Both the position numbers and the translations under genes were made by a program. Of a DNA stretch of 64,000 nt, positions 2,074 to 29,610 are shown piece after piece. The notes below the pieces were generated by a model that was not told where the DNA came from, did no database searches, and was given only the letters and a program-made list of their open reading frames with translations. Within the stretch, counting starts at the first letter, position 1. Every line of letters begins with the position of its first letter. This DNA comes from a virus (taxonomy: Duplodnaviria; Caudoviricetes): IMG/VR virus record IMGVR_UViG_3300028738_000008; one strand, 5' to 3'.

Positions 2074-4989
2074 ATGGCAAAACTAACTACTAATCTCATA
2101 ACAGGCATTGAGATGCTTCTAACGGGTTTCGATGTTAGCGGAAATACGGTCACCGAAACAGACCCCACAGTTCCAACATATGTTAAAGCCATAACGACTG
2201 GCGATATATCTAGCTGGAACTCAAAACAACAAGCTGGTAATTATTTAGTTCAAGGTGATGTTATTGCTACCGATGCTTTGGGTCGTAATAAATTGAAAAT
2301 GTACATAACTGTTAATCCGTCAAACGTTGACATGAATGCATGTAACATTACTATACCAGCTCTAAAATACAATAAGAAGGTAGCATTTTCGCATTCAAGT
2401 GACGATAGTGACATCCTTGTTCATTCTTTATGGCAAGAATATTGCAACGGACATTGGATAGATGATATACTGTGGATTAATAGTCAACCATTTCATGAAT
2501 TGACTCCAAGAACTACTGGTAGTTATGCTCCACGAATTTTACGAAGTACTGACGGATGCGGAAATGACATTAGATTTAGAATGACTTTAGCTTATCTGTC
2601 ATATAATGGTGCTGGAACTAATTTATTAACATCAACGAATCTTGCTTCACCATACTCACAGAAAACAGACATTCAAAAAATGCTTGATTTTTTTGGCGAC
2701 ATATCTAATCATGGTCAAGGTATTCCCAATGGCGGTAAACTTGGCGTTGATGGCGACTGGTATGACTCATTAACTGGAACAGAAAATAACTTTAATACAA
2801 ATATGGGATTCAAGCCCGCCACAGTCTGTCAGGCTGACGGCGATATAAATTATTTGTATGCTGCGCAGATTATGGACGAGATTTATATGATGACAGATAA
2901 TCTGGTAAAATATGACCCATTTAATGCCGCTGATAACGCTGCGGACATAGATAAATTATGTATCAACAGACGATCCATAGTAAGCATGATATCATTTACA
3001 GGTAATACAACAGACGTTCAAACAAGCTTAATTGCTGCTCATAATGCATGCGTAGCAGACCCTTCAAAAAGATATTGGTTAATTAGCGGCGGACATAATT
3101 GGTCAGCATCGGCAAATATGCATAATGACGCCGTAGGCTTTCTTAATTATATTCATGATCATTATGGCGCAGGCGGCGACGATTCCATTTGGTTTGCAGG
3201 TATGTCAGAAATCTACGAATATTTGTTTTTAAGAAAACTTATAAAGAATAATATTGTGAAAACAATTTCAGGCAATACAATAATGTTTGAGTTTGAAATC
3301 CCAGATCCTTATAATGTGTCGTGGAAGGAATTATCATTCCTTATATCTGGAATCGCAAATATGAATGACGTTATCACATTCAGCGTTGATGGGCCAGCAT
3401 ATGGCGTATCCAAGGCTATTAATGACTCGTCATTATTGGTGAATATTGATTACAATAAAAACAGTAAAGCATTAGCTGAAAAGTATTTGGCTTTAGCTAT
3501 TGCATCCCCAACAAGTGAGAGAGTTGCTGATGCATATTATTTTATAAATAGACTCAACCCAAATATCAACTCGGTGTTAAGAAGTAAATTATCAACATAT
3601 GCAATAGCACCAACATTAAACTCAATCGTTATCAATAATAATGACACCTCAACCGCAAATAGATTGGTAACAATATCTTTAAGTTATACTGGCTACATGT
3701 CCGAATATATGGTATCTGAAACATCAACATTTTCAGGTGCTACTTGGAATGTGTTAACAACAACATCATTTCCATATACTTTCGCAACAAGTATCATTGA
3801 GACAAAAACGATATATGTGAAAATTAGAAATGCTTATGGCGTGTCAGCAACTATGGTCGATTCAATTAGTTATCTTGGCTTAGTGTTATCATTTAATTCA
3901 GTTATTATTAATTCTGGCGCAGGTACTACACAAACTGCTGAGGTGGTTGTGTCTACGACATATAGTAATAGTACGCCGACATACTATAGAATTGGCGAAA
4001 CACCCGATCTATCAACAAATCTTTGGATTACATGGACTGGATCGCAAATATCCTATAACTTAACAGCATTGGGAACACGAACCGTATACGTTCAATTACA
4101 GGATAATATCACAACAACAAATACCCTTAGTGACTCGATTCTATATTCGCCAATTGATCTTAAATCGGTTATAATTAATAGTGGCTCAACATCAACCCCC
4201 GATCAAATAGTACACATTGCATTTAATTACTTAGGATATCCTACTGATTATATGCTATCGGAAAATGCTGACTTTTCGGGTGCTACATGGACTCAGTGGA
4301 TAGGAGGCTCAGGATCAACCGTCACGTTTACTCTTAGTTTGAATAACGGTGTAAAAACGGTATATGGAAAAATGCGAGACATTAATAGTTATGAGAGTGT
4401 TGTTGTTAATGATACAATATCATTAGCGATTGCATCTGCAAAAAGAATGAAAGCAAGTTTAACAACGTATAGTGGAACATCGCCATTTGTCAGTTTAGTA
4501 TCAAATGGCGAAACTTGGAATCAAGGAAAACCATCAGTTACTTCAAAAGCATTGAAGGATACAAATGGTAATGCATACTGTAGTGTTATAGCATCATACA
4601 CTGGCATAATATCAGCATCTTTACCAATTCCTATGACTGGCACAGTTTATGACGCCGTGTTGTCAGGTGGGCTTGTATGGTACACAGGATCGCCAGTGGT
4701 TTACACTATACCGTTTATTATTACATTCACAGGTTTGGTTGTTGGTAAAATAATAAGAGTTAAAGTATTTGGCACTGATAACAGATCAACCGAGCAACAT
4801 GGTGCAGTGACTATATCTGGCATTGGTTCTGAAACGCAGGCAATAAATCCTAAATATAATGTATCGAATATAAACATATTTGAAAACGTTGTAGTGCCAA
4901 GCAACGGTAGTATTACACTTAGTTTAGTTGGCGTTACGCCTGATACTAAAACTTGCATTCAGATTGTTGAATTTGAAGAAGTGGGTTAA
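2074..4989 (+). CDS. Large protein with a polysaccharide-deacetylase-like domain and three beta-rich Ig-like repeats (putative virion/adhesion protein)
   Basis: PALKYNKKVAFSHSSDDS, DISNHG and ISGGH motifs; repeats LNSIVINNN/FNSVIINSG/LKSVIINSG...FSGATW. Confidence 0.6.
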   Translation: MAKLTTNLITGIEMLLTGFDVSGNTVTETDPTVPTYVKAITTGDISSWNSKQQAGNYLVQGDVIATDALGRNKLKMYITVNPSNVDMNACNITIPALKYNKKVAFSHSSDDSDILVHSLWQEYCNGHWIDDILWINSQPFHELTPRTTGSYAPRILRSTDGCGNDIRFRMTLAYLSYNGAGTNLLTSTNLASPYSQKTDIQKMLDFFGDISNHGQGIPNGGKLGVDGDWYDSLTGTENNFNTNMGFKPATVCQADGDINYLYAAQIMDEIYMMTDNLVKYDPFNAADNAADIDKLCINRRSIVSMISFTGNTTDVQTSLIAAHNACVADPSKRYWLISGGHNWSASANMHNDAVGFLNYIHDHYGAGGDDSIWFAGMSEIYEYLFLRKLIKNNIVKTISGNTIMFEFEIPDPYNVSWKELSFLISGIANMNDVITFSVDGPAYGVSKAINDSSLLVNIDYNKNSKALAEKYLALAIASPTSERVADAYYFINRLNPNINSVLRSKLSTYAIAPTLNSIVINNNDTSTANRLVTISLSYTGYMSEYMVSETSTFSGATWNVLTTTSFPYTFATSIIETKTIYVKIRNAYGVSATMVDSISYLGLVLSFNSVIINSGAGTTQTAEVVVSTTYSNSTPTYYRIGETPDLSTNLWITWTGSQISYNLTALGTRTVYVQLQDNITTTNTLSDSILYSPIDLKSVIINSGSTSTPDQIVHIAFNYLGYPTDYMLSENADFSGATWTQWIGGSGSTVTFTLSLNNGVKTVYGKMRDINSYESVVVNDTISLAIASAKRMKASLTTYSGTSPFVSLVSNGETWNQGKPSVTSKALKDTNGNAYCSVIASYTGIISASLPIPMTGTVYDAVLSGGLVWYTGSPVVYTIPFIITFTGLVVGKIIRVKVFGTDNRSTEQHGAVTISGIGSETQAINPKYNVSNINIFENVVVPSNGSITLSLVGVTPDTKTCIQIVEFEEVG

Positions 4990-5045: not shown

Positions 5046-5219
5046 ATGAATGAACAATTAAAAATTGGCGACGTGGTTGATTTAAAATCAGGAGGCCCAC
5101 GAATGACATTAGGTACTTTCCAGAGCAATGGAAAATGGCTTGCGCAGTGGTTTACTGGTGAAGAACTGAGACATGGCGAATTCCGTACTGAGCAAATCGA
5201 ATTGTCAAAAGACGAATAA
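5046..5219 (+). CDS. YodC/DUF2158-family small protein (57 aa; not in the ORF track)
   Basis: MNEQLKIGDVVDLKSGGPRMT...AQWFTGEELRHGEF; the GDVVxLKSGGPxMT signature. Confidence 0.8.
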   Translation: MNEQLKIGDVVDLKSGGPRMTLGTFQSNGKWLAQWFTGEELRHGEFRTEQIELSKDE

Positions 5220-5303
5220 TCAATGATTTCGTTTCACAATTCATGAAATAATTTACAGAATTTCATGAATTGTGAAACTTTTTCAAAATATTTTGTATTT
5301 ATA

Positions 5304-5334
5304 TTTGCAAGTTACAAATTAATGATTACCTTTG
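5304..5334 (+). promoter_or_regulatory. Bacteroidota housekeeping-sigma promoter of tRNA operon 1
   Basis: TTTG-N19-TACCTTTG. Confidence 0.85.
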
Positions 5335-5363
5335 TACCGAAATAAAATTTTAAGAAATATACA

Positions 5364-5435
5364 ATGAGAACAATTTTTAACATAGTACCGCAGCATCAAC
5401 CACAACCCTTGAAGTATCTTCAATCGAATGGCTGA
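5364..5435 (+). CDS. Leader peptide 1 MRTIFNIVPQHQPQPLKYLQSNG (Pro/Gln/His sensor)
   Basis: CCG CAG CAT CAA CCA CAA CCC run, located between promoter and terminator of the Pro/His/Gln tRNA cluster. Confidence 0.85.
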   Translation: MRTIFNIVPQHQPQPLKYLQSNG

Positions 5436-5463
5436 ACTATGTAAAAAATAAACATACATAATG

Positions 5464-5500
5464 ATCCCCTTTAATTGAAAGATTAAAGGGGATTTTTTTT
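5464..5500 (+). terminator. Attenuator terminator 1
   Basis: ATCCCCTTTAAT-tgaaag-ATTAAAGGGGAT plus T run, 2 nt before the first tRNA. Confidence 0.9.
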
Positions 5501-5502
5501 AT

Positions 5503-5587
5503 CTAGGCGTAGCCCTGTAGTTGGTAGCAGTCCTGATTTGGGATCAGGCGTGGTAACACCTCGTGAGTTCGACCCTCACCGCTTAGA
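5503..5587 (+). tRNA. tRNA-Pro(TGG) with long variable arm
   Basis: Acceptor CTAGGCG/CGCTTAG; anticodon arm CCTGA-TTTGGGA-TCAGG; 14-nt extra arm GTG-GTAA-CAC; T arm GTGAG-TTCGACC-CTCAC. Confidence 0.85.
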
Positions 5588-5597
5588 CAAAATTTAT

Positions 5598-5674
5598 CTG
5601 GGAGTTATGCAGAGGCAATACAACGGTATTTTGGAAATATCGGCTCGTGAGTTCGATTCTCACCTCTCAGACCA
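5598..5674 (+). tRNA. tRNA-Pro(TGG)
   Basis: Acceptor CTGGGAG/CTCTCAG; loop TTTGGAA; T arm; encoded CCA. Confidence 0.85.
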
Positions 5675-5702
5675 CTGATTATCAGTTCTTTGAATAATTT
5701 AT

Positions 5703-5775
5703 AGAGTAGTATATCAATTGGCAGATTACCGCATTCGGGATGCGGAGGCTCTGGATTCGAGTTCCAGTTACTCTA
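5703..5775 (+). tRNA. tRNA-Pro(CGG)
   Basis: CCGCA-TTCGGGA-TGCGG; acceptor AGAGTAG/TTACTCT. Confidence 0.85.
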
Positions 5776-5785
5776 CTGATTAGAT

Positions 5786-5859
5786 GGTGTCTATAGTGCA
5801 ATTGGTAGCATGACAGATTGTGGTTCTGTTGATGACAGGTTCGAACCCTGCTAGACACA
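5786..5859 (+). tRNA. tRNA-His(GTG)
   Basis: ACAGA-TTGTGGT-TCTGT; G-1 present; A at position 73. Confidence 0.85.
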
Positions 5860-5887
5860 CTAAATGCGAATTGCATTTTATTAAAAT

Positions 5888-5962
5888 GGTGATTGTAGCT
5901 TAAACGGATAAAGCGCATGCCTGTGAAGCATGTATATGCGAGATCGTACCTCGTCTTTCACC
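5888..5962 (+). tRNA. tRNA-His(GTG)
   Basis: CATGC-CTGTGAA-GCATG; G-1:C73. Confidence 0.8.
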
Positions 5963-5982
5963 CTAATTTTAAATTAAAGATC

Positions 5983-6747
5983 ATGTATTACGTTGTACAG
6001 AAGAATGTTTTTAGGGAAGAAAATTACGATAATTTGATTATCGCTTTGAATCGGTTGGAGTTGCCATATGAGATCGTTGATGTATTACCTTTTGTAGACA
6101 CCTTCGAATTCAAGACAACCAGAAAGGATGTTTTTCCTTTCGGAGCTGTTAAAATGTCAAGAATTGCCAAAGAATTGGACTGGAATCCAGGCTCTCAATT
6201 ATGTGACAATCATGACTATAACGTATATAGTAAGTATTATAAAGAAAACTTGCTGAACTACGATTCAAGGATTATCAGGTTTGGCGATGATTTCTTTCAA
6301 ACAGAAAGGTTCTTTGCACGTCCGACATTGGATACTAAAGTGTTTACTGGTCATGTGTTTGACATGGGCGAATGGATTAAGTTCAGAGACGAATCCATTG
6401 TCAATGGACATAGCACTTTACTGAACACAGATACTGAAATTCAGATTTCTTCTGTAAAAAATATACAGAAAGAAATAAGGTTTTGGATTGTGAAAGGCGA
6501 AATCGCCACAGCAAGTCAGTATTCTCTGGGTGGAAGATTCTGTGTGAATGAAAACGTCGATCAGTCGGCATATGACTTCGTAAACAGAATGATTAAGATA
6601 TTCGAATTGAATGATACCTTTATTATAGATGCATGCCTTGTTAAAGGCGAATACAAAATAGTTGAATGCGGTTGCACAAACAGTGCTGGCTTCTATCGAG
6701 CAGATATGCAAAAGCTGCTTATGAAATTGGAAGACGCTTTCAATTAA
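5983..6747 (+). CDS. ATP-grasp domain protein (DUF4343-like)
   Basis: FFARPTLDTKVFTG, EIRFWIVKGEI and IVECGCTNSAGFY motifs; start moved to ATG 5983 because 5917 lies inside tRNA-His. Confidence 0.75.
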   Translation: MYYVVQKNVFREENYDNLIIALNRLELPYEIVDVLPFVDTFEFKTTRKDVFPFGAVKMSRIAKELDWNPGSQLCDNHDYNVYSKYYKENLLNYDSRIIRFGDDFFQTERFFARPTLDTKVFTGHVFDMGEWIKFRDESIVNGHSTLLNTDTEIQISSVKNIQKEIRFWIVKGEIATASQYSLGGRFCVNENVDQSAYDFVNRMIKIFELNDTFIIDACLVKGEYKIVECGCTNSAGFYRADMQKLLMKLEDAFN

Positions 6748-6754
6748 TATAAAT

Positions 6755-6830
6755 TGCCTTATGGTGTAATTGGCAACACACCTGATTCTGATTCAGTTGA
6801 GTGAAGGTTCGAGTCCTTCTAAGGCATCCA
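6755..6830 (+). tRNA. tRNA-Gln(CTG)
   Basis: TGCCTTA/TAAGGCA acceptor; loop TTCTGAT; encoded CCA. Confidence 0.9.
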
Positions 6831-6837
6831 ACTATAT

Positions 6838-6909
6838 TGCCCTGTTATGTAATGGCTAGCATACGACACTTTGACTGTCGGAGTTACGGTTCGAATCCGT
6901 ACAGGGCAA
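6838..6909 (+). tRNA. tRNA-Gln(TTG)
   Basis: CGACA-CTTTGAC-TGTCG; TGCCCTG/CAGGGCA. Confidence 0.9.
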
Positions 6910-6995
6910 CAAAATTTAACGATATATTAGCGTTATTTAGAATCATTTTTTTTACATAATGTGCATATTTTTACTATTTATAGGTAAAATATACC

Positions 6996-8009
6996 ATGAA
7001 AATATTATTTATATTAAAAGAAAGATTTTATAATAATTCGTTAATCAAGTCATATGGACTAATGAATTCATCAACGCATGTTTCGAAGTATTTAGACTCT
7101 ATTGGACTTTGCACAAAAGTAGTGAGAGTTGTTGATGGAAATTCAATTGATAAAGAGGTTCATGAATACAAACCAGATGTCGTCATTATTGAGGCTTTAT
7201 GGGTAAGCGGCGAAAAACTAAAAGAACTTATTGAGATAAAGAGATATTCCCATATCAGATGGATTGTAAGAGTTCACAGCGATATTGGCTTCTTGGCTGC
7301 TGAGACTTTGGCATTGAAATATATTAATGATTACATTAGCCTCAATAAGCATAATTTGGTCATAGCACCAAACAATAAGGAATTTAATGAGTATCTTACG
7401 AATGCTATGAATTTTAAATTCAAATATCTTCCCAATATTATTAATGTTAAATCATCAGATCATTCTTTAGTAAAGCATCCGCACTCAATAGATATTGGAT
7501 GTTTTGGTGCATTAAGAATACTGAAAAATCATGTATTTCAAGCTATGTGTGCAATGAGCGCAGCGGATATATTAAATAAGACATTGCGCTTTCACATTAC
7601 TGTAGATGCGAACGCCGATAAAGCAAATCTAAATCCAGTATTAAAGAATTTGGAGGAATTATTTAAACGTAGTTCTCATGAATTGATCTGTCATCCTTGG
7701 ATGGAGAATGACGAGTTTCAGGGTCTGGTTAGAAAAATGGACATAGGCTTACAGCTTTCATATACCGAAAGCTTCAACATTGTCGCAGCAGATTTTGTTA
7801 ATAATGATATTCCAATTATCGTATCAGATGCCATTGATTGGATGCCAGATATATTTAAAACATCTACAATTGATTACGAAGAAGCGACTAATAAAATAGT
7901 TTCAATCTATAAATCCAGAACTTTGGGTCATAAAAAGAATGTTGCTTTTGATAGTTTGGTAAAATATAATCGTAAGGCTCAACAAGAATGGCTAGATTTC
8001 ATTATCTAA
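6996..8009 (+). CDS. GT-B fold (GT4-like) glycosyltransferase
   Basis: PDVVIIE, IGCFGALRILKN and DIGLQLSYTESFNIVAAD motifs. Confidence 0.7.
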   Translation: MKILFILKERFYNNSLIKSYGLMNSSTHVSKYLDSIGLCTKVVRVVDGNSIDKEVHEYKPDVVIIEALWVSGEKLKELIEIKRYSHIRWIVRVHSDIGFLAAETLALKYINDYISLNKHNLVIAPNNKEFNEYLTNAMNFKFKYLPNIINVKSSDHSLVKHPHSIDIGCFGALRILKNHVFQAMCAMSAADILNKTLRFHITVDANADKANLNPVLKNLEELFKRSSHELICHPWMENDEFQGLVRKMDIGLQLSYTESFNIVAADFVNNDIPIIVSDAIDWMPDIFKTSTIDYEEATNKIVSIYKSRTLGHKKNVAFDSLVKYNRKAQQEWLDFII

Positions 8010-8058
8010 AGTCAAGTGCTTATTATGAAATTAAAAGTATTTATTTTAAAATAATATC

Positions 8059-8829
8059 ATGACAGTAACGAATAGTAAACAGAGACTTTTTGAAATGATG
8101 TCCAGATTGGATGGCAATTTCAATTCAAGTCTAAACGAAAATGACGATAAGCTTGTTGATAGAGAGTTAATAGAAAACAAACGAACCGAAAAGAAGAAGG
8201 TTATCAATGAAAACAAGCTTTTCGAAATGAATAATAAGTTGAATGAGTTGGGTCAAAACGATCCTTGGGATGCTGAGGTTGATGCAGCATCACGTAGAGC
8301 TGAAATTAAAGCTTATTATGGTGGTAATCATACTCAGGGTGATGACGATGATGATTACGATGTAAAACCTCGTAGAGCTAGATTTTATTCTGATGATGAA
8401 GATGAAATGGACGAAAATAAGCTGACTGAATATCCTTCCGAGAAACCCACACATGGTCAAGACCCTAATTGGAGTATTGACCCAAAAAATCCTTCGGGAT
8501 GTCTACCTAATCTTCCTATGGATGAGGGCGATATGAATGAGGCTATTAACGTTGGTGACGTTTTACAATATTTAGATGACGGCACATTTTGGAAAATAAT
8601 TGATATAACCAACGGAATAGCAACAGCTTTTGACGGATTTAAAACAAAAGGAAAAATTGAGGCGAACAAATTAGTTGCCAATAATAATCTAAAAATATCT
8701 AAAGATGTTGACGGTAGGTTATTTAAAAGCTTAGTAGCGAAAGCAAAAGAGCATATTAAGAATAATGGCACAGATGAGGATGATTATATTAATAGCGGCT
8801 ACCCAATGGACGAAAATGAGCTGAACTAA
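8059..8829 (+). CDS. Acidic hypothetical protein (putative virion-internal)
   Basis: N-terminal SKQRLFEMMSRLDGNF shared with 11618..12691; late-type motif upstream. Confidence 0.75.
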   Translation: MTVTNSKQRLFEMMSRLDGNFNSSLNENDDKLVDRELIENKRTEKKKVINENKLFEMNNKLNELGQNDPWDAEVDAASRRAEIKAYYGGNHTQGDDDDDYDVKPRRARFYSDDEDEMDENKLTEYPSEKPTHGQDPNWSIDPKNPSGCLPNLPMDEGDMNEAINVGDVLQYLDDGTFWKIIDITNGIATAFDGFKTKGKIEANKLVANNNLKISKDVDGRLFKSLVAKAKEHIKNNGTDEDDYINSGYPMDENELN

Positions 8830-8877
8830 TAAAATAGTGAATTATTTTAAACTTTTTTGATTTTTTTACTATTTATA

Positions 8878-8908
8878 TTTGCAGGTATCAAAAATTGTAT
8901 TACCTTTG
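8878..8908 (+). promoter_or_regulatory. Bacteroidota housekeeping-sigma promoter of tRNA operon 2
   Basis: TTTG-N19-TACCTTTG. Confidence 0.85.
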
Positions 8909-8938
8909 TACCGAAATTAATATTTAAGAATAGAAACA

Positions 8939-9031
8939 ATGAGAAATTTACTTAACATAGAATTATTGGCAGTGGATCAGGTCAACCTCCTATTATGGGC
9001 GGATGAAGATAGATTATGCCATGCTGGTTAA
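8939..9031 (+). CDS. Leader peptide 2 MRNLLNIELLAVDQVNLLLWADEDRLCHAG (Leu/Trp/Ala/Asp/Glu/Val sensor)
   Basis: Consecutive L L L W A D E D codons; lies between promoter and terminator. Confidence 0.85.
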   Translation: MRNLLNIELLAVDQVNLLLWADEDRLCHAG

Positions 9032-9056
9032 GTAGAGTTTAAGAATATTTTAAACT

Positions 9057-9087
9057 AAACCCCCAGCATACGTGTTGGGGGTTTTTT
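9057..9087 (+). terminator. Attenuator terminator 2
   Basis: AAACCCCCAGCA-tacg-TGTTGGGGGTTT plus T run. Confidence 0.9.
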
Positions 9088-9131
9088 GTTTATGTACGTT
9101 ATTTGACATGTTGGGTTATAAAATTAAAATT

Positions 9132-9203
9132 GGTCTATTGGGGTATGGGTTATCCTTTGTGGTTGTCAGCCATGAGAAGCGAGTTCAAGTCTCGCATAGA
9201 CCG
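9132..9203 (+). tRNA. tRNA-Asp(GTC)
   Basis: Loop TTGTCAG; GGTCTAT/ATAGACC; G73. Confidence 0.85.
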
Positions 9204-9365: not shown

Positions 9366-9438
9366 GCTCGGTTCATCTAACTGGTTAGGATAGGTGACCT
9401 TCAATCATCCAATACGGATTCAAGTTCCGTACCGAGTA
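9366..9438 (+). tRNA. tRNA-Glu(TTC)
   Basis: GGTGA-CCTTCAA-TCATC; GCTCGGT/ACCGAGT. Confidence 0.85.
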
Positions 9439-9448
9439 CTTTTTTCAT

Positions 9449-14963: not shown

Positions 14964-15041
14964 ATGATGAATGCAACACTTAAATACGGAAAGACTACTA
15001 AATCTTATAAAAAATATAAGATGAAGAAGGACTGTGTGTAA
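14964..15041 (+). CDS. Leader peptide 3 MMNATLKYGKTTKSYKKYKMKKDCV (Lys/Tyr sensor)
   Basis: 8 Lys and 3 Tyr in 25 codons; lies between promoter and terminator. Confidence 0.85.
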   Translation: MMNATLKYGKTTKSYKKYKMKKDCV

Positions 15042-15112: not shown

Positions 15113-15184
15113 GCTCCTATAGCTTAATGGTAAAGCCTTCGACCTTTAATCGAATGACCCCTGAATCAGTATCAGGTGGGAGCA
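15113..15184 (+). tRNA. tRNA-Lys(TTT)
   Basis: TTCGA-CCTTTAA-TCGAA; variant T loop. Confidence 0.8.
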
Positions 15185-16089: not shown

Positions 16090-16161
16090 GGCTCGTTAGT
16101 TCAGCGGTTAGGGCGTCTGACTCTAAATCAGAAGGCATGGTTTCGAATACCATACGAGCCG
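16090..16161 (+). tRNA. Amber suppressor tRNA (anticodon CTA)
   Basis: TCTGA-CTCTAAA-TCAGA perfect arm; GGCTCGT/ACGAGCC; G73. Confidence 0.9.
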
Positions 16162-16175
16162 CAAATAATTATAAT

Positions 16176-24375: not shown

Positions 24376-24522
24376 ATGAAAAGGAACATATCATCAGCAA
24401 CCATATCGGGAATTACATCGGGATCAATATCTCGCAATAGTAATGGTATGTCAAGATGTAATTTCATTTTTACAGGTATTAATACAGGCATACAAAAAAT
24501 AGATTGGGTTCTCTTAATGTGA
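24376..24522 (+). CDS. Leader peptide 4 MKRNISSATISGITSGSISRNSNGMSRCNFIFTGINTGIQKIDWVLLM (Ser/Gly/Thr/Ile/Asn/Arg/Met/Cys/Phe sensor)
   Basis: 36 of the 38 residues at positions 2-39 belong to the nine amino acids of the downstream tRNAs; may also start at 24328. Confidence 0.85.
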   Translation: MKRNISSATISGITSGSISRNSNGMSRCNFIFTGINTGIQKIDWVLLM

Positions 24523-29534: not shown

Positions 29535-29610
29535 GGAGGCGTATCACAACAATCTTCTAAATTGTTTTAGTGTAATTGGACTGATGTGGGTTCGACTCCC
29601 ATCGCCTCTT
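29535..29610 (+). tRNA. Atypical D-armless tRNA-Arg(TCT)
   Basis: GGAGGCG/CGCCTCT, TATCAC linker, AACAAT-CTTCTAA-ATTGTT, TTAGT-GTAATTGG-ACTGA hairpin, T arm GTGGG-TTCGACT-CCCAT. Confidence 0.65.

What the first reader, a model, noticed from the sequence alone, without database searches (positions are those of the whole stretch)
5364..6909. Attenuator 1: PQHQPQP leader whose codons match the Pro/His/Gln anticodons one for one
Seen: leader codons CCG, CAG, CAT, CAA and CCA are read by the downstream anticodons CGG, CTG, GTG, TTG and TGG. TTGAAG (5409-14) pairs with CTTCAA (5418-23). Alternatively TCTTCAAT (5417-24) can pair, with one bulge, to ATTGAAAGA (5474-82) in the terminator arm and loop. 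This resembles the classic 1:2, 2:3, 3:4 layout. The antiterminator is the weakest of the four (inference).
Basis: partly seen in the sequence, partly recalled or inferred. Interest (0 to 1): 0.8.

Follow-up and report, generated by a model that had tools for sequence, protein, structure and literature searches.

The report
Leader-peptide attenuator gating phage tRNA genes
A huge peat-soil phage places a 23-codon test gene with a Pro/Gln/His codon run, plus a switchable transcription stop, directly in front of its Pro, His and Gln tRNA genes, so it probably makes these tRNAs only when ribosomes read those codons slowly; I found no published case of this control for tRNA genes.

Summary
A Bacteroidota-type promoter (5304-5334) is followed by a 23-codon ORF (5364-5435, core PQHQPQP). 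Next come a 14-bp intrinsic terminator (5463-5500) and, two bases later, tRNA-Pro x3, His x2, an ATP-grasp gene and Gln x2.

PQHQPQP is the longest Pro/His/Gln run in all six frames of the window.

- 22 distinct homologous leaders in uncultured phages keep the same design in front of Pro/His/Gln tRNAs, and their Pro and Gln codons vary synonymously.
- Other leader types change with their tRNA set: LLQQLQLLQL precedes Gln/Leu, and SSSRSSS precedes Arg/Ser. Permuting tRNA sets among 12 units gives p<1e-5.
- Folding with a ribosome mask frees the antiterminator only when the ribosome sits on the regulatory codons.

Two weak points remain. This copy's antiterminator is weak and not significant on its own. 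The codon-to-anticodon match is literally true but not conserved.

I read this as a ribosome-mediated attenuator that senses decoding of Pro/His/Gln codons. There is no expression evidence and I found no publication. The scan has noted the same design on other phage DNA many times.

The parts
5231..5278 (+). Perfect hairpin followed by a T run, after the DUF2158 gene (5046-5219). It is the upstream gene's own terminator, so the terminator at 5463 does not belong to that gene.
5304..5334 (+). Bacteroidota-type promoter match (TTTG, 19-nt spacer, TAnnTTTG), about 30 nt before the leader ATG. The same motif precedes leader 2, and lies about 105 nt upstream of leader 4.
   Evidence: 8 matches in the window against 3.1 expected
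5364..5435 (+). Leader ORF of 23 codons. It has an A/T-rich, unpaired 5' UTR and no Shine-Dalgarno sequence.
5388..5408 (+). Regulatory codon run PQHQPQP (CCG CAG CAT CAA CCA CAA CCC).
5396..5414 (+). Region 1, the 5' strand of the 1:2 hairpin. It contains UCA 5396-98, CCA 5400-02 and TTGAAG 5409-14, and overlaps regulatory codons 11-15.
   Evidence: the family equivalent UCCA:UGGG is
5418..5435 (+). Region 2. CTTCAA 5418-23, UGG 5429-31 and UGA 5433-35 pair with region 1. Alternatively, 5419-5431 pairs with region 3. It contains the GAATGG motif, kept in a different reading frame from the relatives.
5373..5386 (+). 5' strand of an outer helix (codons 4-8) that pairs with 5436-5449, just after the stop codon. 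It closes the untranslated leader. It is not conserved across the whole family.
5436..5449 (+). 3' strand of the outer helix.
5467..5479 (+). Region 3: the terminator's 5' arm and loop. Region 2 pairs with it in the antiterminator: 5419-24 with 5474-79, 5426-28 with 5470-72, and 5430-31 with 5467-68.
   Evidence: (folding with a ribosome mask)
5463..5500 (+). Intrinsic terminator: 14-bp stem at 5463-5476/5481-5494, GAAA loop, and a T run at 5493-5500.
5503..5963 (+). tRNA-Pro(TGG) x2 (atypical), tRNA-Pro(CGG) and tRNA-His(GTG) x2. The first starts 2 nt after the T run, leaving no room for a separate promoter.
5983..6747 (+). R2K-clade ATP-grasp gene embedded in the tRNA block. This arrangement is conserved in relatives.
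6755..6910 (+). tRNA-Gln(CTG) and tRNA-Gln(TTG).

Best explanation
This is a ribosome-mediated (leader-peptide) transcription attenuator that gates a phage tRNA operon. Transcription starts at the Bacteroidota-type promoter, and a ribosome translates the 23-codon leader.

If Pro, His and Gln codons are decoded quickly, the ribosome reaches the stop codon and covers region 2 (5418-5435). The terminator at 5463-5500 then forms, and transcription ends 2 nt before the first tRNA.

If decoding of codons 9-15 is slow, the stalled ribosome covers region 1 but leaves region 2 free. Region 2 then pairs with the terminator's 5' arm and loop (5467-5479), and RNA polymerase reads through into tRNA-Pro x3, His x2, the ATP-grasp gene and tRNA-Gln x2.

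With no ribosome, the 1:2 hairpin and the outer helix hold region 2, and termination follows.

Because the products are the tRNAs that relieve the stall, the circuit would be a negative feedback loop. It would supply phage tRNAs on demand, for example when host tRNAs are scarce, cleaved or ill-matched to phage codon usage.

Shown directly: the anatomy, the conservation, and the covariation of leader composition with tRNA set. Inferred: translation of the leader, coupling to RNA polymerase, regulated readthrough, and the physiological signal.
For: 1. Anatomy. Promoter, ORF, terminator and tRNAs are contiguous, and the upstream gene has its own terminator.

2. Composition in this window. The leader carries the longest Pro/His/Gln run in six frames of the window. 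Each of the window's four leaders is enriched for its own tRNA block, with empirical p of 0.002-0.007 and a diagonal log-odds matrix. The four blocks partition all 20 amino acids.

3. Conservation. 22 distinct homologous leaders from IMG/VR contigs (typically MKNLVNI[V/Q]PQPQQHPQ..EWG.Y.) are each followed by a terminator and Pro/His/Gln tRNAs. Their Pro and Gln codons vary synonymously while the amino acids are kept.

4. Covariation across leader types. LLQQLQLLQL precedes Gln/Leu tRNAs. SSSRSSS precedes Arg/Ser. C/D/Y/N/E-rich leaders precede Glu/Asp/Tyr/Asn/Cys. Permuting tRNA sets among 12 units never reached the observed score in 100,000 trials.

5. Antiterminator design across units. The leader's 3' end is complementary to the terminator's 5' arm, using a different sequence in each unit type. 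Seven of nine units beat shuffles at p<=0.04. In the family, GAATGGGG pairs with CCCCATTC in 95.5% of cells, against 63% or less when the partner is slid.

6. Geometry. With a ribosome mask, the probability that the terminator's CCCC pairs with the leader's 3' end is 0.77 when stalled, 0.02 at the stop codon and 0.22 with no ribosome (mean of 22). For the window the values are 0.49, 0.00 and 0.00.

7. Closest relative. L001 carries a compensatory G5414A plus C5418T change that keeps the 1:2 hairpin and lengthens the 2:3 pairing. Its P15Q change stays within the Pro/His/Gln set.

8. RNA-level conservation. The GAATGG motif is conserved in a different reading frame here (S-N-G-stop) than in the relatives (E-W-G), which points to an RNA role.
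Against: - There are no expression data. No RNA sequencing run holding this DNA was listed.
- This copy's antiterminator is weak: about -5 to -8 kcal/mol against -18.5 to -20.7 for the terminator. Its duplex energy is not better than shuffles (p=0.19).
- The three-state pattern appears in 1.7% of shuffles, and a stall-minus-stop difference at least as large appears in 8%.
- Within the 22-member family the antiterminator columns are nearly invariant, so there is no covariation for it.
- Seven of the 22 relatives are predicted to form the antiterminator even without a ribosome.
- Transcription-translation coupling and a pause site are assumed, not shown.
- His is sensed by a single codon.
- Extra tRNA would not help under plain amino-acid starvation, so the logic requires tRNA to be the limiting factor rather than the amino acid.
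Confidence: 0.72

Rival explanations
1. The leader and terminator form a translation-dependent switch, but it reports general translation capacity or timing of infection (any slowing of ribosomes). It does not specifically sense Pro/His/Gln decoding.
For: The geometry only requires a ribosome to sit at codons 9-15. The conserved N-terminal codons and the start-stop pairing (80% of cells paired) point to control of initiation as well.
Against: A general sensor has no need for a core made of the block's own amino acids, nor for that core to change with the tRNA set across phages.
Confidence: 0.1
2. The hairpin is a constitutive, leaky terminator that only sets a low fixed level of tRNA transcription or ends a small promoter-proximal transcript. 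The short ORF plays no part in regulation.
For: The terminator is far more stable than this copy's antiterminator, and the antiterminator is not individually significant.
Against: This does not explain a conserved ORF with synonymous variation in its core. It does not explain the match between composition and tRNA set. It does not explain complementarity between the leader end and the terminator arm in seven of nine units, or the compensatory change in L001.
Confidence: 0.08
3. The same attenuator senses aminoacylation (amino-acid starvation) rather than tRNA abundance. It would then tie tRNA and ATP-grasp expression to host nutritional state.
For: Classical leader peptides respond to charged-tRNA levels, and the structure cannot tell the two causes of a stall apart.
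Against: Making more uncharged tRNA would not relieve starvation. A feedback loop makes sense only if tRNA itself is limiting (inference).
Confidence: 0.08
4. A chance ORF happens to sit next to a terminator.
For: Short ORFs are common in AT-rich DNA (620 in this window).
Against: It carries the longest Pro/His/Gln run in the window. There are 22 conserved homologues, and the permutation test gives p<1e-5.
Confidence: 0.02

Closest known systems
Leader-peptide attenuators of enterobacterial amino-acid operons: hisL (seven His codons), trpL, pheL, leuL, and the multivalent thrL and ilvL (ilvGMEDA) leaders
   Same: A short ORF with a run of regulatory codons, alternative 1:2, 2:3 and 3:4 hairpins, an intrinsic terminator before the first regulated gene, and a read-out of decoding speed. 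Like ilvL and thrL, it senses several amino acids at once.
   Different: The regulated genes are tRNA genes, not biosynthetic enzymes, so the product acts directly on the sensor. The element is in a phage, has a Bacteroidota-type promoter and lacks a Shine-Dalgarno sequence. No Rfam leader family matches it.
pheM leader attenuator of the E. coli pheST operon (from my own knowledge)
   Same: Leader-peptide attenuation applied to a component of the translation apparatus serving the sensed codons.
   Different: It controls an aminoacyl-tRNA synthetase and senses one amino acid. Here the tRNAs themselves are controlled and three amino acids are sensed.
T-box riboswitches
   Same: A terminator/antiterminator decision that depends on the state of a specific tRNA.
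   Different: A T-box binds uncharged tRNA directly and has no translated ORF. No T-box or other Rfam cis-regulatory family scored here.
Bacteroid-trp RNA motif (Rfam; a predicted Trp leader-peptide attenuator in Bacteroidota, from my own knowledge)
   Same: It suggests that leader-peptide attenuation is used in the likely host phylum.
   Different: It is a bacterial biosynthetic operon sensing one amino acid. It gave no match to this region.
Phage tRNA arrays viewed as codon-usage compensation or as counter-defence against tRNA-cleaving immunity (for example PMC12409363 on PARIS AriB, found)
   Same: Large phage-encoded tRNA sets that replace or supplement host tRNAs.
   Different: I found no description of demand-sensing control of their transcription in those papers or elsewhere.

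Membership tests
Ribosome-mediated (leader-peptide) transcription attenuator | Short ORF in the 5' leader with clustered codons cognate to the regulated product | tested here: met
   23-codon ORF with PQHQPQP in front of Pro/His/Gln tRNAs. The same holds in 22 homologues.
Ribosome-mediated (leader-peptide) transcription attenuator | Intrinsic terminator between the leader ORF and the first regulated gene | tested here: met
   14-bp stem plus T run at 5463-5500, 2 nt before the first tRNA.
Ribosome-mediated (leader-peptide) transcription attenuator | Antiterminator mutually exclusive with the terminator, formed only when the ribosome stalls at the regulatory codons | tested here: inconclusive
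   It is predicted in silico: 0.49 stalled, 0.00 at stop and 0.00 with no ribosome for the window, and 0.77, 0.02 and 0.22 as family means. This copy is weak: 1.7% of shuffles reproduce the pattern, and the duplex test gives p=0.19. Relatives have a strong 8-bp version.
Ribosome-mediated (leader-peptide) transcription attenuator | 1:2 hairpin that overlaps the regulatory codons and sequesters region 2 | tested here: met
   It is in the minimum-free-energy fold. A compensatory G-C to A-U change occurs in L001. The family equivalent UCCA:UGGG is paired in 95.5% of cells.
Ribosome-mediated (leader-peptide) transcription attenuator | The leader is translated | not testable with these tools
   The only support is indirect: synonymous variation with conserved amino acids in the core and an unpaired start region. 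No RNA or ribosome data were available.
Ribosome-mediated (leader-peptide) transcription attenuator | Readthrough responds to the supply of cognate charged tRNA | not testable with these tools
   This needs an experiment.
Curated Rfam leader or T-box families | Score at or above the family's gathering threshold | tested here: not met
   Only tRNA passes. The best other hit is PyrG_leader at 30.5 bits against a threshold of 65 (E=0.13), which is no more than a terminator-like resemblance.

The most novel reading that the evidence does not exclude
Huge phages of Bacteroidota-type hosts run a set of demand sensors. Each block of tRNA genes is autoregulated by a leader peptide that measures how fast the codons served by that block are decoded. 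The phage therefore replaces exactly those tRNAs that are missing in the infected cell, whether through codon-usage mismatch, host shut-off or tRNA-cleaving defence systems. This would be the first case of leader-peptide attenuation controlling tRNA genes, and a direct read-out of why and when phages express their tRNAs.
Probability: 0.6. Interest if true: 0.9.

Novelty: new variant of a known kind. Interest (0 to 1): 0.82.

Why it matters
Why phages carry tRNA arrays, and when they use them, is an open question that is now tied to tRNA-targeting immunity. A leader whose codons list the tRNAs behind it would mean that expression is driven by demand. It also offers a simple, testable handle: mutate the start codon, the regulatory codons or the antiterminator, then deplete single tRNAs. 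The leader sequence alone would predict which tRNAs a block is meant to supply. It would also extend a textbook mechanism, attenuation of amino-acid operons, to a new class of target genes and to phages of a phylum where coupling of transcription and translation is little studied.

Tried and rejected
- The whole genome of the window is not held.
- INPHARED phage records hold no relative of 5200-9200, only short tRNA matches.
- A scan of bacterial and archaeal genomes for the family's leader start found nothing.
- The one metagenome scan for the window's subfamily returned only the same relative as L001, on a 328.5-kb contig; the other 12 loci were chance matches. The window-specific antiterminator therefore cannot be tested by covariation.
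- No RNA sequencing run was listed. The DNA holders are peat metagenomes.
- Rfam gave a sub-threshold PyrG_leader hit and microRNA hits on the upstream palindrome; I rejected these as hairpin look-alikes.
- The outer helix (5373-5386 with 5436-5449) is present here and in some relatives but is not conserved across the family by inspection of alignment A2.
- Within the family, the antiterminator shows no covariation because its columns are invariant.
- A cruder measure, mean pairing of the whole 5' arm, separated the ribosome states poorly. I replaced it with the specific leader-to-CCCC pairing.
- I rejected the isoacceptor 'one codon per anticodon' design.
- Reading TAG as a sense codon hardly changes ORFs in this window, despite a CTA-anticodon tRNA.

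Full report
**What is in the sequence**

The window carries at least 36 tRNA genes, all on the + strand, between 5503 and 33428. ARAGORN finds 33 and Rfam 34, and the two lists overlap only in part. The protein genes are phage-like: ribonucleotide reductase, HNH endonuclease and several PHROG families. A relative lies on a 328.5-kb contig, and IMG/VR records of the same leader family reach 300-425 kb at 97-100% estimated completeness. This is therefore a huge phage. The DNA occurs in peat metagenomes.

Upstream of the finding, a DUF2158 gene (5046-5219) ends with its own perfect hairpin at 5231-5278. A Bacteroidota-type promoter match (TTTG, 19-nt spacer, TAnnTTTG) follows at 5304-5334. An unpaired A/T-rich 5' UTR leads into an ORF at 5364-5435 that encodes MRTIFNIVPQHQPQPLKYLQSNG. 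A 14-bp terminator stem at 5463-5494 is followed by a T run to 5500. The first tRNA starts at 5503, which leaves no room for another promoter.

The block contains Pro(TGG) x2, Pro(CGG), His(GTG) x2, an R2K-clade ATP-grasp gene, Gln(CTG) and Gln(TTG).

**Checking the observation**

PQHQPQP is the longest run of Pro/His/Gln in all six frames of the window. Only 0.65% of the window's 620 short ORFs are as rich in these three residues.

The one-to-one codon-anticodon match is literally true. By my arithmetic it would arise about one time in five under uniform codon use. It is also not conserved:
- The closest relative keeps the CCG codon, yet its homologous tRNA has anticodon TGG. The difference from the window's CGG is a single base.
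- Relatives that carry only Pro(TGG) use all four Pro codons in their leaders.

The match is therefore at the level of amino acid and tRNA family, not single codons.

**The same design elsewhere in the window**

Three further units of promoter, short ORF and terminator precede the other tRNA blocks. Each leader is enriched in the amino acids of its own block, with empirical p between 0.002 and 0.007. The log-odds matrix is diagonal, and the four blocks divide all 20 amino acids without overlap.

**Comparative evidence**

I used the ATP-grasp protein and leader-start patterns as probes. These yielded 22 distinct leaders of the Pro/His/Gln type from uncultured phage contigs. The typical sequence is MKNLVNI[V/Q]PQPQQHPQ..EWG.Y. 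In every case a terminator and Pro/His/Gln tRNAs follow.

Within the regulatory core, the Pro and Gln codons vary synonymously while the amino acids stay the same. That pattern is expected if the ORF is translated and residue identity is what matters.

Other phages carry the same conserved leader start with a different core, and the core follows the tRNAs behind it:
- LLQQLQLLQL precedes Gln and Leu tRNAs.
- SSSRSSS precedes Arg and Ser tRNAs.
- Cys/Asp/Tyr/Asn/Glu-rich cores precede those tRNAs.

Permuting the tRNA sets among 12 units never reached the observed match in 100,000 trials. These units are not all independent, and some tRNA sets are cut off by locus ends.

**Structure and mechanism**

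The minimum-free-energy fold of the untranslated leader has three elements:
- A 1:2 hairpin: UCA and CCA at 5396-5402 plus TTGAAG at 5409-5414, paired with CTTCAA at 5418-5423 plus UGG and UGA at 5429-5435.
- An outer helix: 5373-5386 with 5436-5449.
- The terminator.

The fold is well below shuffled sequences (z = -4.65).

I then masked a 30-nt ribosome footprint and folded the nascent RNA up to the terminator loop. When the A site is on codons 8-14, region 2 (5419-5431) pairs with the terminator's 5' arm and loop (5467-5479). This no longer happens once the ribosome moves on or reaches the stop codon, and it does not happen without a ribosome.

The specific pairing probability for the stalled, stop and no-ribosome states is 0.49, 0.00 and 0.00 for the window. 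The means over the 22 homologues are 0.77, 0.02 and 0.22. The stalled value exceeds the stop value in all 22.

In the relatives the antiterminator is a strong 8-bp helix, GAATGGGG with CCCCATTC. It is paired in 95.5% of cells, against at most 63% when the partner is slid. Its columns are invariant, so there is no covariation.

Across unit types the complementarity is achieved with unrelated sequences. Seven of nine units beat dinucleotide shuffles at p<=0.04.

The GAATGG motif is kept in the window in a different reading frame (S-N-G-stop rather than E-W-G), which argues for a role at the RNA level.

Compared with the window, relative L001 has a compensatory G5414A and C5418T change. This preserves the 1:2 hairpin and lengthens the 2:3 pairing to eight contiguous pairs. 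Its Pro15-to-Gln change stays inside the sensed set.

**Weak points**

- The window's own antiterminator is weak, about -5 to -8 kcal/mol against about -19 to -21 for the terminator.
- It is not better than shuffles in the duplex test (p=0.19).
- The full three-state pattern arises in 1.7% of shuffles, and an equal stall-minus-stop difference in 8%.
- In seven of the 22 relatives the antiterminator is predicted to form even without a ribosome.
- No RNA data could be found. Translation of the leader, polymerase pausing, coupling and regulated readthrough are all inferred.

**Interpretation**

The best reading is a leader-peptide attenuator that senses how fast Pro, His and Gln codons are decoded, and that admits RNA polymerase into the tRNA operon only when decoding is slow. 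The tRNAs made would relieve the stall, so the circuit is a negative feedback loop for tRNA supply.

Whether the natural trigger is codon-usage mismatch, loss of host tRNAs or tRNA-cleaving defence is open.

**Comparison with known systems**

It works like hisL, trpL, pheL and leuL, and like the multivalent ilvL and thrL attenuators. Its logic is closest to the pheST leader. It matches no curated Rfam family and is not a T-box.

Six full-text searches found no description of attenuation controlling tRNA genes, in phages or elsewhere. The scan's own notes describe the same design in many other phage genomes. These are unchecked AI notes and I do not count them as evidence.

I class this as a new variant of a known kind of regulator, and of high interest if an experiment confirms it.

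Noticed in passing
window 5703-5776 vs L001 3802-3875: The homologous tRNA-Pro differs by one base at anticodon position 34: CGG in the window, TGG in the 94%-identical relative. This is an anticodon switch between close relatives.
   Followed up: partly
L001 3176-3700: An HNH endonuclease gene (Pfam HNH_3, E=7e-9) is inserted between the first and second tRNA of the relative's block. It is absent from the window. The window has an extra tRNA-His (5787-5860) that the relative lacks.
   Followed up: partly
window 5503-5588 and 5598-5674: The first two tRNA-Pro(TGG) genes are atypical. The first is 86 nt with a long variable arm and scores only 35 bits in Rfam. The second is called by ARAGORN only. 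The first is conserved in L001.
   Followed up: partly
window 9366-9439, 15113-15184, 29535-29610: Three tRNAs found by Rfam were missed by the first ARAGORN run. The first is Glu(TTC). The second is Lys(TTT)-like with an odd T arm. The third is Arg(TCT)-like with an unusual D region. The last two anticodons were read by eye.
   Followed up: partly
window 16090-16162: A tRNA with a CTA anticodon (amber suppressor type) is present. However, reading TAG as sense barely changes ORFs in this window, and TAA is the usual stop codon (37 of 43 long frames).
   Followed up: partly
window 5983-6747 and loci L001-L008: An R2K-clade ATP-grasp gene sits inside or next to the Pro/His/Gln (or Gln/Leu) tRNA block in all eight related loci. 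It is probably co-transcribed with the tRNAs. Its function is unknown.
   Followed up: partly
L006 578-658; L134 (- strand) leader at 4769; L057 6011-6097; L113 2907-2999: Other phages carry leaders with the same conserved start but different cores matched to their own tRNA blocks. LLQQLQLLQL precedes Gln/Leu. SSSRSSS precedes Arg/Ser. C/D/Y/N/E-rich cores precede Glu/Asp/Tyr/Asn/Cys.
   Followed up: partly
alignment A2 columns 6-26 and 87-95: The leader start (ATGAAAAATTTAGTNAACATA, encoding MKNLxNI) is conserved at the DNA level across leader types. It can pair with the TAAATTTTT around the stop codon (80% of cells paired). This may shut off re-initiation, but the role is unexplained.
   Followed up: partly
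window 8939-9031, 14964-15041, 24376-24522: Three further leader-terminator units precede the other tRNA blocks. Together the four blocks cover all 20 amino acids without overlap. Units 2-4 have clearer antiterminators: ATGCTGG with CCAGCAT, AGGACTG with CAGTCTT, and TAGATTGGGTT with AACCCGATCTA.
   Followed up: partly
window 5231-5278: A perfect long palindromic hairpin follows the DUF2158 gene. It draws spurious sub-threshold microRNA hits in Rfam on both strands.
   Followed up: no
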